In this document: positions 13,237-31,373 of the stretch, piece after piece
Layout: the number at the start of each line of letters is the position of its first letter
How positions within the stretch are numbered: the stretch's first letter is position 1
Source of the DNA: Chromatiales bacterium
GTDB lineage: Bacteria; Pseudomonadota; Gammaproteobacteria; UBA6429; Thiohalophilaceae
Reading direction: 5' to 3'
NCBI GenBank assembly: GCA_027001895.1
Contig: JALTLP010000374.1
Span: 1 to 31,373, forward strand
DNA: 31,373 nucleotides
Notes under the pieces: model-generated
Databases searched by the model: none
What the model was told of the DNA's origin: nothing
The model's input: the letters and a program-made list of their open reading frames with translations, nothing else
Position numbers and translations under genes: made by a program

Positions 13237-13315
13237 CACAATGCCGTATTATTCACAGATACGGTTAAGATTGTATGGTATATATTAACAAGTTTGTCAC
13301 AATTAAGGAGAAAAT

Positions 13316-28640: not shown

Positions 28641-29948
28641 CTGTTGGGGATTGCCTTCTTTTATAAGTCGGGTTTCCGGGAAAATACAACTAAACGTACT
28701 GCCAACATTCAGCTCGCTGACGATGTTAAGCCGACCATCATGCCTTTCAAGAATATGTTTAACGATGGCCAGTCCAAGACCGGTGCCACCGGTTGCACGG
28801 GAGCGATCCACGTTAACCCGGTAAAAGCGTTCGGTTAAATGCGGGATATGTTGTTGCGGGATACCTGTTCCGGTATCTTTTACGCTAAACAGTCCCTGGC
28901 CATCGGTAACTTCCCAGCTAATAAGAATCTCACCTTTGTCAGGGGTATAACGTACCGCGTTATTCACCAGGTTTGAAAACAGGCTGTATAACTCTTCATA
29001 GTTACCACGTAAGTTGGTGTCGCTTTTTATATCCAGCGTTATTTGCTGTTGCTTATCACCACTGAGCAGTGTTGCTGACTCTTTTATTGCGGTGAGCAGT
29101 GCGGCAATCTCAACCACGTTGTCATGTTGGTCGGTAGGGCGTGTTTCAAGCTTAGATAACGACAACAAATCACTGACCAATCGTTCCATTCGTTTTGACT
29201 GGTTATACATCGTTTTTGTAATTTTAGTTAATTTTTCAGGATCAGTTGGTGGGTTATCCTTGATTGTTTCGAGATACCCGGAGATAACCGTAATAGGAGA
29301 GCGCAGTTCGTGTGAAGCGTTGGCTACAAAGTTGCTACGCATTTCTTCGAGTTTGTTTATATGGCTAATGTCCCGGCAAATAATAAGTAACTGTTTTTTT
29401 ACGTAAGGAATAATTTGCACGGAAAGCTTTTTAGCCGGGTGCTCAGGGGAAGCAATATGCAATTCCCGACTGTAATCCTTTTTATTTAAATAGCGCATAA
29501 AGGCCGGGTTTCTAAACAGATTGCTAATGGCCTGATTGGCATCCTGAGGATAGCGAATTCCGACCAGAGATTCGGCTGCTTTATTTGACCAGTCGATATG
29601 TTTGTCTTTATTAAGAATAATCATTGCATCCGGCAGCGCCGAAGTGGCTTCCTGAAAGCGGCGGATAGTTTTGTTTAATGCATCTTTGTTCTTATTAATG
29701 GTTTTTTCCATTATGTATAACTGGTGAAAAATTTCACCCCAATAACCTTTACTGTCGGGTAGTTGGGTTTGTTCACGTTTTAACAGCCATTGGTGAAGTC
29801 TGGAAATATTTTTAAAGGTAAAAATAATATAGGAAAATAGAACAACGCTTATAAACAATACTGAAAGGTCGAACAGGTAACCCGCTGCAGCCGCAAGGGC
29901 ACAGTAAAATAGTAAAAACCAGAGTTCACGTTGTAATTGTGGATGCAT
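28632..29948 (-). CDS. phoR: Phosphate regulon sensor kinase PhoR
   Basis: 438 aa, N-terminal TM, PAS-like region, FVANASHELRSP, NLVNNAVRY, ERFYRV..RSRATGGTGLGLAIVKH. Confidence 0.96.
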   Translation of the reverse strand: MHPQLQRELWFLLFYCALAAAAGYLFDLSVLFISVVLFSYIIFTFKNISRLHQWLLKREQTQLPDSKGYWGEIFHQLYIMEKTINKNKDALNKTIRRFQEATSALPDAMIILNKDKHIDWSNKAAESLVGIRYPQDANQAISNLFRNPAFMRYLNKKDYSRELHIASPEHPAKKLSVQIIPYVKKQLLIICRDISHINKLEEMRSNFVANASHELRSPITVISGYLETIKDNPPTDPEKLTKITKTMYNQSKRMERLVSDLLSLSKLETRPTDQHDNVVEIAALLTAIKESATLLSGDKQQQITLDIKSDTNLRGNYEELYSLFSNLVNNAVRYTPDKGEILISWEVTDGQGLFSVKDTGTGIPQQHIPHLTERFYRVNVDRSRATGGTGLGLAIVKHILERHDGRLNIVSELNVGSTFSCIFPETRLIKEGNPQQDS

Positions 29949-30649
29949 TATTGTGTGGACAGCCGGTAGCCAGAACCACGAACCGTCTGGATAAGGTTAT
30001 GGTTATCGGATGGCTCCAGTGCTTTTCTTAAACGTCGAATATGGACATCAACGGTGCGTTCTTCGACATAGACACTGTCACCCCAGACACCGTTGAGTAA
30101 TTGTTCACGGCTGTAAACTCGTTCAGGTGAACGCATAAAAAAAGCCAGCAGGTTGTATTCGGTTGGTCCAAGTTGAATGGTTTGTCCTTTTGATGAGACC
30201 CGGTGTGAGGCATTATCAAGTGTCAGGTTGGCGACGTTAAGGACTTCTGAAGAAGGCGTTGAACTTGTCCGGCGTAGCAAGGCGCGAATACGTGCATGCA
30301 ACTCTTTAGTTGAAAAGGGTTTACTGAGGTAATCATCGGCGCCGCTTTCGAGGCCTTCGAGCATGTTTTCTTCTTCTGTTTTTGCAGTCAGCATGATGAC
30401 AGGGATATGACGGGTTTCATCTTTTTTGCGCAGGCTCTTAACATAGTTAACGCCACTGATACCCGGCATCATCCAGTCGAGCAGGATCAAATCCGGTAGT
30501 TGTTGTTTAATCCAGGCCTCGGCTTTATGTGCATCGCTGGCCTCGATACACTGATAATCATCTTCGAGTGACATCATTATCATTTCACGAATCGCGTGTT
30601 CATCATCGACGATTAGAATCACCGGCTTTTTAAGGTTTGAACTGTTCAT
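29948..30649 (-). CDS. phoB: Phosphate regulon response regulator PhoB
   Basis: ILIVDDE, LLDWMMPG, GADDY..KPFS, GPTEY.LL, EERTVDVHIRRLRK, TVRGSGY. Start set at ATG 30649; upstream TTG 30679 and ATG 30658 fall inside the predicted promoter. Confidence 0.95.
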   Translation of the reverse strand: MNSSNLKKPVILIVDDEHAIREMIMMSLEDDYQCIEASDAHKAEAWIKQQLPDLILLDWMMPGISGVNYVKSLRKKDETRHIPVIMLTAKTEEENMLEGLESGADDYLSKPFSTKELHARIRALLRRTSSTPSSEVLNVANLTLDNASHRVSSKGQTIQLGPTEYNLLAFFMRSPERVYSREQLLNGVWGDSVYVEERTVDVHIRRLRKALEPSDNHNLIQTVRGSGYRLSTQ

Positions 30650-30656
30650 GCTGCCC

Positions 30657-30690
30657 ATTAAAACAGAGGTATATGACAATTTTATTACAA
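30657..30690 (-). promoter_or_regulatory. Pho box and -10 for phoB (autoregulation)
   Basis: TTGTAAT-AAAA-TTGTCAT (30690-30673), a 10-nt gap, then TTTAAT (30662-30657). Confidence 0.75.
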
Positions 30691-30874
30691 TTTATATTTG
30701 CCAGATATAACAAGATGATAATTCTGTAAGCTATGCAGGCACTTGTTGTCTTGATGCCTTTTACGTTCTCGGGTGTCAAATCTGCCGTTGGAAAATCCCT
30801 TGTTTTTCAAAGGCATAGTAAATTCTAATATACTAACGCCATATTTATGACTTTTTACAGAGATATCGCTGAAC

Positions 30875-30887
30875 TAAGTGTTTGATT
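30875..30887. promoter_or_regulatory. IHF-binding consensus match
   Basis: Minus strand AATCAAACACTTA matches WATCAANNNNTTR, about 40 nt upstream of the sigma54-like element. Confidence 0.5.
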
Positions 30888-30923
30888 CCCGGTCTTAAAC
30901 ACTACATATATAAGCAACGACTG

Positions 30924-30940
30924 TTGGTACAGTAACTGCA
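30924..30940 (+). promoter_or_regulatory. Sigma54 (-24/-12) promoter candidate
   Basis: TTGGTACAGTAACTGCA: GG (30926-30927), N10, GC (30938-30939), close to YTGGCACGNNNNTTGCW. Confidence 0.55.
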
Positions 30941-30950
30941 TTATTGAATA

Positions 30951-31024
30951 TGTCATATTTATTATGAATTCTCCTTAGGTTAGGTAAACTTCCGGGCACT
31001 TTCCCTCAAAGTGCCCTTTTTTTT
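30951..31024 (+). ncRNA. Candidate sRNA of about 74 nt
   Basis: Lies between the sigma54-like promoter and an orphan intrinsic terminator, has no plus-strand ORF, and contains anti-SD CTCCTT (30971-30976). Confidence 0.45.
30994..31024 (+). terminator. Intrinsic terminator with no upstream plus-strand coding gene
   Basis: GGGCACTTT-ccctc-AAAGTGCCC followed by 8 T. Confidence 0.85.
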
Positions 31025-31061
31025 AGTGCCAGAAAAATTCTCGCTTGTTACACTCAAATCC

Positions 31062-31373
31062 ATGTCTATTTTAGAATCTAAAACCATTTTTAGTGGTCGC
31101 ATTGTTACGCTTAAACTTGAAAAAGTGCGGTTGCCGGATAATTCTCTGGCCGATTACGAAATGGTTTACCATCGGGGCGGGACGGCGATTGTTGCAATCA
31201 ATGAAAATAATGAAGTTTGTTTATTAAAACATTATCGACCCGCAGTGCAGGACTGGGTATGGGAAATTCCAGCCGGTATGTTAGAAAAGGACGATGCTTC
31301 AACGCTGGCACGGGCACAAACAGAGTTGCAGGAAGAAACCGGCTTTAGAGCCGCTAAATGGCAGGCGCTGGGT
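31062..31373 (+). CDS. Nudix hydrolase, ADP-ribose pyrophosphatase (NudF-like), partial (runs off window)
   Basis: Translated by hand (not in the ORF track): MSILESKTIFSGRIVTLKLEKVRLPDNSLADYEMVYHRGGTAIVAINENNEVCLLKHYRPAVQDWVWEIPAGMLEKDDASTLARAQTELQEETGFRAAKWQALG. Confidence 0.85.
   Translation, partial: MSILESKTIFSGRIVTLKLEKVRLPDNSLADYEMVYHRGGTAIVAINENNEVCLLKHYRPAVQDWVWEIPAGMLEKDDASTLARAQTELQEETGFRAAKWQALG

What the first reader, a model, noticed from the sequence alone, without database searches (positions are those of the whole stretch)
30875..31024. Candidate undescribed sigma54/IHF-dependent sRNA with an anti-Shine-Dalgarno seed, divergent from phoB
Seen: four independent elements in the right order and spacing on the plus strand: an IHF consensus (30875-30887), a -24/-12 element TTGGTACAGTAACTGCA (30924-30940) predicting +1 near 30951, an AU-rich stretch with UUCUCCUUAG (30969-30978), and a 9-bp GC-rich terminator with 8 U (30994-31024). 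No plus-strand ORF explains the terminator, and about 180 nt upstream are free for an enhancer. Established: sigma54 promoters need a bEBP and often IHF; sigma54 sRNAs (Qrr, CrcZ) and anti-SD sRNAs (MmgR, AbcR) exist; AU-rich tracts and U tails bind Hfq. Inference: a roughly 74-nt trans-acting translational repressor, possibly linking nitrogen or other bEBP signals to the neighbouring phosphate locus. Its UUCUCCUUA is complementary to the DUF411 RBS TAAGGAGAA (13304-13312), but that is generic SD pairing, not target evidence. I do not recognise it as a known family.
Basis: partly seen in the sequence, partly recalled or inferred. Interest (0 to 1): 0.75.

Follow-up and report, generated by a model that had tools for sequence, protein, structure and literature searches.

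The report
Orphan small RNA with two alternative-sigma promoters

Summary
Together they form a real, conserved non-coding gene with a strong orphan terminator and an invariant core, UAUGAAUUCUCCUUAGGUUAGGUAAAC. No Rfam family reaches threshold.

A covariance model finds one copy per genome in 21 of 75 genomes of the order (5 of 23 genera). It finds none in 150 other families of the class.

The interpretation needs correcting:
- **Sigma-E-type promoter.** Every homologue carries GAACTN-N16-YCNTA upstream. The same motif lies upstream of rpoE in six genomes.
- **Sigma-54 promoter.** The -24/-12 element is 94% conserved but occurs only in the phoB/nudF-linked clade (two genera plus metagenome copies). 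It sits between the sigma-E promoter and the core.
- **IHF-like core.** TTGAT/CTGAT is conserved only in that same clade.

Best reading: an Hfq-type, anti-Shine-Dalgarno repressor RNA that was ancestrally sigma-E-driven and here gained a second, sigma-54 promoter.

No RNA data exist because the organisms are uncultured vent and sediment MAGs. Targets and the activator remain unidentified. The scan had not noted this RNA elsewhere.

The parts
30773..30781 (+). Upstream conserved block A (GTGTCAAAT); role unknown, candidate activator site
   Evidence: GTCAAA is kept in nearly all genus-level sequences and in genus g9. It is also kept in metagenome loci where phoB is not the upstream gene, so it belongs to the RNA gene rather than to phoB.
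30816..30835 (.). Upstream conserved block B, an imperfect 20-bp palindrome (TAGAATAT-N4-ATATTCTA in relatives); role unknown
   Evidence: It is conserved in all genus-level sequences and perfect in G003 and G005. It is not repeated elsewhere in these genomes at 0-1 mismatch. By eye a similar AGTATATGCTGA block precedes the sigma-E-type promoter in the sigma-54-less g19 homologues.
30871..30897 (+). Sigma-E/ECF-type promoter P1: -35 GAACTA (30871-76), 16-nt spacer, -10 TCTTA (30893-97). Predicted start is near 30903-30905, giving an RNA of about 120 nt
   Evidence: Per-column identity is 0.99 for the -35 and 0.90 for the -10. The motif is present upstream of every homologue in 5 genera. The same architecture lies about 75 nt upstream of rpoE in 6 genomes of 4 genera. 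Only 10 matches to GAACTW-N15-17-TCTNA occur in the whole genome.
30875..30887 (-). IHF consensus match (AATCAAACACTTA), embedded in the P1 -35 and spacer
   Evidence: The match is exact here and in L069-L072, and has 1-2 mismatches in the other relatives. The TTGAT/CTGAT core is conserved only in lineages that also carry the sigma-54 motif. ihfA is present.
30924..30940 (+). Sigma-54 -24/-12 promoter P2 (TTGGTACAGTAACTGCA). Predicted start is 30951-30952, giving an RNA of about 72 nt
   Evidence: Per-column identity is 0.94 in 12 sequences. Genus g9 has TTGGCATAATGTCTGCAT with GG and GC kept and the spacer changed. The motif is absent from the g19, g12 and g13 homologues, although rpoN is in 72 of 75 genomes. 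A conserved TGT lies at the predicted +1.
30963..30989 (+). Conserved, mostly unpaired core with the anti-Shine-Dalgarno stretch (UAUGAAUUCUCCUUAGGUUAGGUAAAC); CUCCUUA equals the 3' end of 16S rRNA (from general knowledge, not checked against this genome's 16S)
   Evidence: Identity is 0.89 within the genus. UAUG, UC.C and GUUAGGU are shared across 5 genera. Mean unpaired probability is 0.43-0.80 in 22 homologues.
30994..31024 (+). Rho-independent terminator: stem 30994-31002 / 31008-31016, loop CCCUC, U8 tail
   Evidence: Found by the terminator scan. In 22 homologues 96% of cells are paired, 5 of 8 pairs show changes on both sides, and 0 of 500 shuffles reach the observed covariation score.

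Best explanation
This is an independent gene for a trans-acting small RNA. It belongs to an undescribed family confined, as far as searched, to one uncultured gammaproteobacterial order. Relatives are deposited as 'Chromatiales', 'Ectothiorhodospiraceae' or 'Thioalkalispiraceae' MAGs from vents and sediments.

The working part is a conserved, largely single-stranded core (UAUGAAUUCUCCUUAGGUUAGGUAAAC). Its CUCCUUA copies the 16S anti-Shine-Dalgarno sequence. A GC-rich terminator with a U8 tail follows, which is the usual Hfq handle.

Inferred mechanism: the core pairs with ribosome-binding sites of target mRNAs, and the flanking GGUUAGGUAAAC gives specificity. Pairing blocks translation initiation.

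Transcription is inferred to come from two tandem alternative-sigma promoters.
- P1 is an ancestral RpoE/ECF-type promoter giving an RNA of about 120 nt. It is shared by all homologues and ties the RNA to envelope stress, like MicA, RybB and MicL.
- P2 is a sigma-54 promoter giving an RNA of about 72 nt. It was gained in the phoB/nudF-linked clade and would be activated by an unidentified enhancer-binding protein.
- An IHF-like site lies inside the P1 spacer. IHF bending for P2 could therefore also occlude P1.

Shown: the sequence elements, their conservation, covariation in the terminator, and the presence of rpoE, rpoN, ihfA, hfq and enhancer-binding proteins. Inferred: expression, both start sites, sigma dependence, Hfq binding and targets.
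For: - Orphan + strand terminator with no conserved ORF.
- Conservation matches the gene's boundaries in 5 of 6 congeners.
- One copy per genome in 21 of 75 genomes and 5 of 23 genera; 0 of 150 other families of the class.
- Terminator covariation and an accessible core.
- A sigma-E-type motif upstream of every homologue, matching the rpoE upstream motif in 6 genomes.
- Conservation islands with per-column identity of 0.99 (sigma-E -35), 0.90 (sigma-E -10) and 0.94 (sigma-54 motif), against 0.64-0.74 for the sequence between them.
- GG and GC of the sigma-54 motif are retained with a changed spacer in genus g9.
- No RNA structure explains the conservation of the sigma-54 motif.
- rpoN, at least 8 enhancer-binding proteins, rpoE, hfq and ihfA are present.
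- Homologues sit at unrelated loci in g12 and g13 and next to phoU in g19, so the RNA is a self-contained unit.
Against: - No transcript data: public runs holding the sequence are DNA, or unlabelled runs that matched only nudF.
- The sigma-54 motif alone is barely above chance genome-wide (13 found, 7.4 expected).
- The cognate activator and enhancer were not identified.
- The IHF reading and the sigma-E reading explain overlapping nucleotides and cannot be separated by sequence.
- The g19 -10 (CCATA) differs from the TCTA of that genus's own rpoE promoter.
- No conserved mRNA target was found. The best hit in this genome (-31.5 kcal/mol) is not conserved in congeners.
- In this clade the RNA always precedes nudF, so a cis role is not excluded.
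Confidence: 0.55

Rival explanations
1. One reading: a purely sigma-54/IHF-dependent RNA of about 74 nt. On this view GAACTA...TCTTA is only the IHF site with its A/T-rich flank, and the resemblance to sigma-E promoters is coincidental in this clade.
For: - Textbook geometry: the IHF centre is near -70, and conserved blocks lie near -125 and -175 relative to the predicted start.
- The IHF core TTGAT/CTGAT, which a sigma-E spacer does not need, is conserved, and only in sigma-54-bearing lineages.
- ihfA, rpoN and enhancer-binding proteins are present.
Against: - The invariant GAAC and the GTC of the -10 lie outside the IHF consensus, yet they are the best conserved positions (0.99 and 0.90).
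- The same -35/N16/-10 stands directly upstream of homologues that have no sigma-54 motif and no IHF core.
- The same motif stands upstream of rpoE.
Confidence: 0.17
2. Sigma-E only. The RNA is the 120-nt P1 transcript, and the sigma-54-like motif is not a working promoter. It would be a conserved 5' RNA segment, or a site where unactivated sigma-54 holoenzyme sits as a roadblock or repressor of P1.
For: - The sigma-E-type promoter is universal in the family.
- The sigma-54 motif is near chance level genome-wide.
- No enhancer was identified.
- Sigma-54 binding is reported to repress an overlapping sigma-70 promoter at glmY (PMC3045617).
Against: - Conservation follows the sigma-54 consensus positions rather than a helix. 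Pairing between the 5' and 3' flanks is weak and inconsistent (z from +1.5 to -3.5, and 0.2 in this window).
- An IHF-like core co-occurs with the motif.
Confidence: 0.15
3. A cis-acting leader or attenuator of nudF. Transcription from P1 or P2 mostly stops at the terminator, and regulated read-through expresses nudF.
For: - nudF follows in the same orientation in all 14 loci of this clade where the flank is known, even where phoB is not upstream.
- nudF lies only 37 nt after the terminator in this window.
- The sigma-54 motif occurs only in the lineages with nudF downstream.
Against: - The gap to nudF varies from 37 to about 500 nt, with inserted repeats.
- Homologues in g19, g12 and g13 have no nudF nearby.
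- The terminator is strong and no alternative anti-terminator fold was seen.
- The most conserved part is an unpaired anti-SD core, which is typical of trans-acting RNAs.
Confidence: 0.08

Closest known systems
MicA / RybB / MicL (E. coli) and VrrA / MicV (Vibrio): sigma-E-dependent envelope-stress sRNAs (PMC4102768, PMC6694218)
   Same: A short orphan RNA behind an RpoE-type promoter (-35 GAACT, 16-nt spacer, -10 TCNTA), ending in a Rho-independent terminator with a U tail. hfq is present. The presumed role is translational repression in trans.
   Different: - No sequence homology: the Rfam MicA model scores 19.4 bits against a threshold of 41.
- The seed is a generic anti-SD stretch, not a 5'-end seed aimed at porin mRNAs.
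- No outer-membrane-protein target was identified.
- Sigma-E dependence is inferred from motifs only.
GlmY / GlmZ of Enterobacteriaceae (PMC3045617, PMC6075780)
   Same: sRNA genes with a sigma-54 promoter, IHF sites and a distant activator site. A second promoter for another sigma factor sits at the same gene. Homologous sRNAs differ between lineages in which promoter type they carry.
   Different: - There the second promoter is sigma-70 and overlaps sigma-54 so that both start at the same nucleotide. Here it is sigma-E-type and lies about 47 nt upstream, predicting two RNA isoforms.
- No GlrR motif TGTC-N10-GACA is present.
- There is no sequence or structural similarity. GlmY and GlmZ act on glmS and RapZ, not through an anti-SD seed.
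MmgR / AbcR-type anti-Shine-Dalgarno sRNAs of Alphaproteobacteria (Rfam RF00519, listed there as suhB/mmgR)
   Same: An unpaired CU-rich anti-SD motif upstream of the terminator. This is the best sub-threshold Rfam hit.
   Different: The score is 25.3 bits against a threshold of 41. The match rests on the terminator and the CU stretch. The organisms belong to a different class and the promoter type differs.
Qrr1-5, CrcZ, NrsZ: sigma-54-dependent sRNAs (from general knowledge)
   Same: Orphan sRNA genes driven by a -24/-12 promoter and an enhancer-binding response regulator.
   Different: No homology, as none of them appears in either Rfam search of the region. No LuxO, CbrB or NtrC site was recognised. 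CrcZ is a protein sponge rather than a base-pairing RNA.
RocR of Legionella (PMC6744872, PMC9674577)
   Same: An RNA of about 66-70 nt that pairs with 5' UTRs. It is highly conserved within one lineage, and its terminator is the chaperone handle.
   Different: The published RocR terminator 3' end (GGCCCUUUCU) differs from this one. RocR needs the ProQ/FinO protein RocC, and no ProQ domain was found in this 84%-complete genome. RocR is near-invariant across Legionella, whereas this RNA varies.

Membership tests
Sigma-54-dependent promoter | GG at -24 and GC at -12 with exact spacing, matching TGGCAC-N5-TTGCW | tested here: met
   TGGTAC-AGTAA-CTGCA at 30925-30940. The motif is kept in all 12 genus-level sequences and in genus g9.
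Sigma-54-dependent promoter | rpoN and enhancer-binding proteins encoded | tested here: met
   rpoN at C176 scores 233.6 bits. Eight strong Sigma54_activat hits represent at least seven proteins, since NtrC is split over two contigs.
Sigma-54-dependent promoter | Identifiable upstream activator site for a cognate enhancer-binding protein | tested here: inconclusive
   Conserved blocks lie near -125 and -175. The palindrome recurs nowhere else. No GlrR site is present. By eye, block B resembles sequence upstream of the sigma-54-less homologues.
Sigma-54-dependent promoter | Transcript depends on rpoN and an activator | not testable with these tools
   No RNA runs hold the locus.
RpoE (sigma-E/ECF) regulon promoter | -35 GAACTT-like and -10 TCNNA-like elements with a 16-nt spacer | tested here: met
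   GAACTA-N16-TCTTA at 30871-30897. Equivalent motifs lie upstream of all 21 homologues.
RpoE (sigma-E/ECF) regulon promoter | Same motif at the organism's own autoregulated rpoE | tested here: met
   GAACT[ATC]-N16-TCATA or TCTA lies about 75 nt upstream of rpoE in G000, G001, G003, G014, G018 and G061.
RpoE (sigma-E/ECF) regulon promoter | Induction by RpoE | not testable with these tools
   No expression data. Four other ECF-like sigma genes exist in the genome, so the sigma factor is not assigned with certainty.
IHF binding site | WATCAANNNNTTR with conservation of ATCAA and TTR but not of the four N positions | tested here: inconclusive
   The match is exact in G000 and L069-L072 and reads ATCAG in half of the relatives, with the N4 positions variable. 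It overlaps the sigma-E -35 and spacer. ihfA is present.
Hfq-dependent base-pairing sRNA | Rho-independent terminator with a U tail of 6 or more, an unpaired seed, and hfq in the genome | tested here: met
   Binding itself is not testable.
Hfq-dependent base-pairing sRNA | Conserved complementary mRNA target | tested here: not met
   The top predictions are a DUF1451-like gene, rpsF, a lipoprotein and hfq. They are either not conserved or are generic SD pairing.
Rfam RF00519 (mmgR) and RF00078 (MicA) | Covariance-model score at or above the gathering threshold (41 bits) | tested here: not met
   25.3 bits and 19.4 bits. Nothing reached threshold anywhere in the window except a tRNA.

The most novel reading that the evidence does not exclude
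The gene is a two-input switch built from two alternative sigma factors. An envelope-stress (RpoE-type) promoter and a sigma-54 promoter stand in tandem, and an IHF site is embedded in the sigma-E spacer. IHF bending that enables the sigma-54 start would then shut the sigma-E start. The result would be two isoforms, about 120 nt and about 72 nt, of one anti-SD repressor RNA. The RNA is also tied to the phosphate regulon. It sits beside the Pho/Pst cluster in two lineages but at opposite ends: divergent from phoB here, and convergent with phoU in genus g19.
Probability: 0.2. Interest if true: 0.6.

Novelty: new member of a known kind. Interest (0 to 1): 0.45.

Why it matters
- It adds a well-delimited sRNA family, absent from Rfam, for an uncultured vent and sediment order in which no regulatory RNA is known.
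- It illustrates promoter turnover at a conserved sRNA. The core and terminator stay the same, a sigma-E-type promoter is present everywhere, and a sigma-54 promoter was added in one clade.
- If both promoters work, it would be an unusual case of two stress or alternative sigma factors feeding one anti-SD repressor.
- The repeated adjacency to the Pho/Pst cluster gives a concrete place to look for function.
- It is also a caution: an exact IHF consensus match can be an ECF -35/spacer.

Tried and rejected
- **Known RNA families.** Rfam gave nothing for this region at gathering or permissive thresholds; mmgR scored 25 bits and MicA 19 bits.
- **Legionella RocR.** Recalled as a possible identity. 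Rejected because the published terminator end differs, no ProQ domain was found, and the lineage is different.
- **Coding readings.**
  - The + strand has only MNSP-stop, and its frame is not kept in G004.
  - The minus-strand 33-aa ORF at 30855-30956, behind the AAGGAG complement, changes frame and length in G003.
- **Expression data.** Two run searches and one read-laying found only DNA contigs of relatives. X7 holds an identical RNA gene with TGGTACAGGAACTGCA upstream. X4 and X5 matched only nudF.
- **A long-range helix in the 120-nt isoform enclosing the sigma-54 motif.** It looked attractive in MFE folds. However, duplex energies against shuffles are inconsistent: z = 0.2 here and +1.5 in g9.
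- **A regulon for the block B palindrome.** No other site at 0-1 mismatch was found in seven genomes. Weaker hits are AT-rich chance matches, for example upstream of what looks like ccoN from its N-terminus (not family-checked).
- **Naming the enhancer-binding protein.** NtrC, an NtrX-like protein and five generic regulators were seen, and none is assignable.
- **Other sites in the control region.** GlrR (TGTC-N10-GACA), CpxR and extra Pho boxes were not found. The only Pho box is phoB's own, at 30673-30690.
- **Target prediction.**
  - The best hit (C388, -31.5 kcal/mol) is not conserved.
  - The lipoprotein C127 was not found in any of five relatives searched.
  - rpsF-leader pairing is significant only within the genus.
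  - No enrichment of ACCUAAC was seen near start codons.
- **The order-level search** repeated the family search, because the order holds a single family.

Full report
**Observation**

The window is a contig of an 84%-complete MAG (2.49 Mb, 42.7% GC) from a hydrothermal-vent metagenome. phoB ends its reading frame at 29948 and starts at 30649 or 30658 on the minus strand. nudF starts at 31062 on the plus strand.

- The IHF consensus is at 30875-30887. Read on the minus strand it is AATCAAACACTTA.
- TTGGTACAGTAACTGCA is at 30924-30940, with GG and GC at the canonical spacing.
- UUCUCCUUAG is at 30969-30978.
- A 9-bp, 5-GC terminator with T8 is at 30994-31024. The scan finds it on the plus strand only.

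The 74-nt RNA folds at -18.3 kcal/mol, z = -3.2. No ORF on either strand is conserved across relatives.

The sigma-54 match alone is weak evidence. TGGYAC-N5-YTGCW occurs 13 times in the genome against 7.4 expected.

**It is a conserved gene**

A BLAST of the 411-nt spacer against 40 relatives matched five of six congeners. phoB and nudF flank it in all five.

A metagenome pattern scan that did not require any promoter added eight more genus-type copies.

In a 12-sequence alignment, conservation falls into islands:

| Segment | Per-column identity |
|---|---|
| GAACTAA | 0.99 |
| Next 14 nt (spacer) | 0.72 |
| GTCTTA | 0.90 |
| Next 24 nt | 0.64 |
| Sigma-54 motif | 0.94 |
| Start region | 0.74 |
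| Core | 0.89 |
| Terminator arms | 0.94 and 0.97 |

Rfam has no family for this region. The best sub-threshold hits are mmgR at 25.3 bits and MicA at 19.4 bits, both against a threshold of 41.

**Family and range**

A first covariance model picked up weak hits in other genera. A scan of all GTDB species genomes with a core pattern returned 14 true copies, each followed by a terminator, and 11 chance hits without one. The true copies are all in MAGs labelled Chromatiales, Ectothiorhodospiraceae, Thioalkalispiraceae, Woeseiaceae or Gammaproteobacteria.

A second model was built from 22 sequences. It finds exactly one copy per genome in 21 of the order's 75 genomes:
- g1: 5 of 6
- g9: 1 of 1
- g19: 11 of 11
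- g12: 2 of 3
- g13: 1 of 1

It finds none in 150 genomes from other families of the class.

The terminator helix is 96% paired across the 22 sequences. Five of its 8 pairs show changes on both sides, and no shuffle reaches the observed covariation score. The core has a mean unpaired probability of 0.43-0.80.

Upstream of every homologue stands GAAC[TC]N, 16 nt, then [TC]C[ATC]TA:
- This window and congeners: GAACTA-N16-TCTTA (30871-30897)
- g13: GGAACTT-N16-TCATA
- g12: GAACTT-N16-TCTTA or TCTCA
- g19: GGAACTA-N16-CCATA

The organism's own rpoE has GAACTA-N16-TCATA about 75 nt upstream. The equivalent motif stands upstream of rpoE in five further genomes of four genera. This is the classic autoregulated RpoE architecture.

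Only ten matches to a relaxed version of the motif exist in the whole genome.

The homologues in g19, g12 and g13 have this promoter directly in front of the RNA and have no sigma-54 motif. The family is therefore ancestrally sigma-E/ECF-type.

**The sigma-54 promoter is probably real too, but clade-specific**

It occurs in all genus-type sequences and in genus g9. There it reads TTGGCAT-AATGT-CTGCAT, against TTGGCAC-AGGAA-CTGCAT in most congeners. The positions sigma-54 contacts are kept, while 4 of the 5 spacer bases and both flanks differ.

rpoN is present in 72 of 75 genomes and in all 23 genera. Absence of the motif elsewhere is therefore not due to absence of sigma-54.

A conserved TGT lies at the predicted start, 30951-53.

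I tested whether the motif could instead be held by RNA structure in the longer sigma-E transcript. Pairing of its flanks is weak and inconsistent, with z from +1.5 to -3.5 and 0.2 in this window.

The IHF-like core TTGAT/CTGAT lies in a spacer that a sigma-E promoter does not need to conserve. It is conserved only in the lineages that have the sigma-54 motif, and ihfA is present. An IHF site embedded in P1 is therefore plausible. The two readings overlap and sequence alone cannot separate them.

**Upstream region**

Two further blocks are conserved: GTGTCAAAT at 30773-81 and an imperfect 20-bp palindrome at 30816-35. They are retained in metagenome loci where phoB is not the neighbour, so they belong to the RNA gene.

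They sit near -175 and -125 from the sigma-54 start, where an enhancer would be. Three observations keep this open:
- By eye, the palindrome block resembles sequence upstream of the sigma-54-less g19 genes.
- The palindrome recurs nowhere else in seven genomes.
- No GlrR, CpxR or extra Pho box is present.

The eight Sigma54_activat hits in the genome are NtrC (split over two contigs), an NtrX-like protein and five generic regulators. They could not be assigned.

**Function**

The core carries CUCCUUA, identical to the 3' end of 16S rRNA (from general knowledge, not checked against this genome's 16S). GGUUAGGUAAAC follows. With the U8 tail and hfq present, the expected mechanism is Hfq-assisted masking of ribosome-binding sites.

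A genome-wide duplex scan of 3,535 candidate starts had mean -11.4 and sd 3.2 kcal/mol. Its results do not give a confident target:
- A DUF1451-like gene scored -31.5 kcal/mol. Its nearest homologues in congeners (about 40% identical, possibly paralogues) keep only generic SD pairing.
- rpsF scored -27.9. The pairing is above shuffled-seed controls only within the genus.
- A lipoprotein scored -24.5, and no orthologue was found in five relatives.
- hfq itself scored -23.7, which is generic SD pairing.

**Synteny**

In this clade the RNA always precedes nudF: 14 of 14 loci, with a gap of 37 to about 500 nt. It is usually divergent from phoBR-pstSCAB-phoU.

In g19 it lies at the other end of the same cluster. 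It is convergent with phoU in all 11 g19 genomes of the set, and in every g19-type locus whose flank was available, 20 loci in all.

Adjacency to the Pho/Pst cluster at both ends in two lineages is suggestive of a functional tie, but it is only synteny. phoB's own Pho box is separate, at 30673-30690.

**Comparison and verdict**

By promoter and form, the nearest analogues are the sigma-E sRNAs MicA, RybB, MicL and MicV (PMC4102768, PMC6694218).

By sigma-54/IHF control, a second promoter at the same gene and lineage-specific promoter swaps, the nearest analogues are GlmY and GlmZ (PMC3045617).

By seed type, the nearest analogues are MmgR and AbcR.

It is a member of none of these families. 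I rate it a new member of a known kind. The tandem sigma-E plus sigma-54 arrangement is a possible new variant.

Everything about expression is inferred. The public runs holding the sequence are DNA or unlabelled, and none showed a transcript. The scan's earlier notes contain no record of this RNA elsewhere.

Noticed in passing
L088:1501-2296 and the other g19-type loci: In genus g19 the homologous RNA gene is convergent with phoU at the end of pstSCAB-phoU, with 10-80 nt between the 3' ends. This holds in all 11 g19 genomes of the set and in every g19-type locus whose flank was available (20 loci in all). In this window the RNA sits at the opposite, phoB end of the same cluster.
   Followed up: partly
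L052, L049, L055, L064 and other g19-type loci, about 8-25 nt upstream of the GGAACTA -35: The minus strand reads GTAAA-N5-GTAAA, a CpxR-box-like direct repeat. It is perfect in L049 and L052 and has one mismatch in most others. This hints at a second envelope-stress input in that lineage. It was not found in this window.
   Followed up: partly
window 31025-31036; A1 columns about 320-447 for G001 (L006): AGTGCCAG(TTTC) directly after the terminator is conserved in many relatives. In G001 it pairs with a downstream ACTGGCACT to give a 9-bp hairpin, and the whole unit is present twice before nudF. This may be a REP-like insert, and it explains the variable gap to nudF.
   Followed up: no
L021 (G078:C13:15169-15246, genus g6): A weaker look-alike: TGGCATAGTGTATGCA (a sigma-54 motif) directly upstream of a CU-rich stretch (GUUCUCCUCCUG) and a GC-rich terminator. 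It is not near phoB or nudF and has no GAAC motif. The broader model does not match it. It may be a separate sigma-54-driven anti-SD RNA.
   Followed up: no
G000:C33:1755-1781 and L078-L082: A conserved RpoE-type autoregulatory motif (GAACT[ATC]-N16-TCATA or TCTA) lies about 75 nt upstream of rpoE in six genomes of four genera. It is usable as the order's sigma-E promoter reference.
   Followed up: yes
G000:C58:17403-17450 (L103) and L117, L118: The rpsF 5' leader (GGGAAGCU..UUAACCAUGAGGAGCAUUUAUG) is conserved within the genus and is complementary to the RNA core. Energies are -27.9, -22.5 and -18.7 kcal/mol against about -13 +/- 2.8 for shuffled seeds. The pairing is not seen in g9 or g19.
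   Followed up: partly
window 30673-30690 (minus strand): A Pho-box-like direct repeat (TTGTAATAAAATTGTCAT, 3 mismatches to the consensus) lies just upstream of phoB.
   Followed up: partly
G000:C388:117-623 (L102): A DUF1451/YbeL-like zinc-ribbon gene lies downstream of what looks like a cbpM-like gene end; both names come from reading the sequence, not from a family search. Its 5' UTR has unusually long complementarity to the RNA, GUUACCUGACCUGA...GGAGAAU, at -31.5 kcal/mol. This is specific to this genome.
   Followed up: partly
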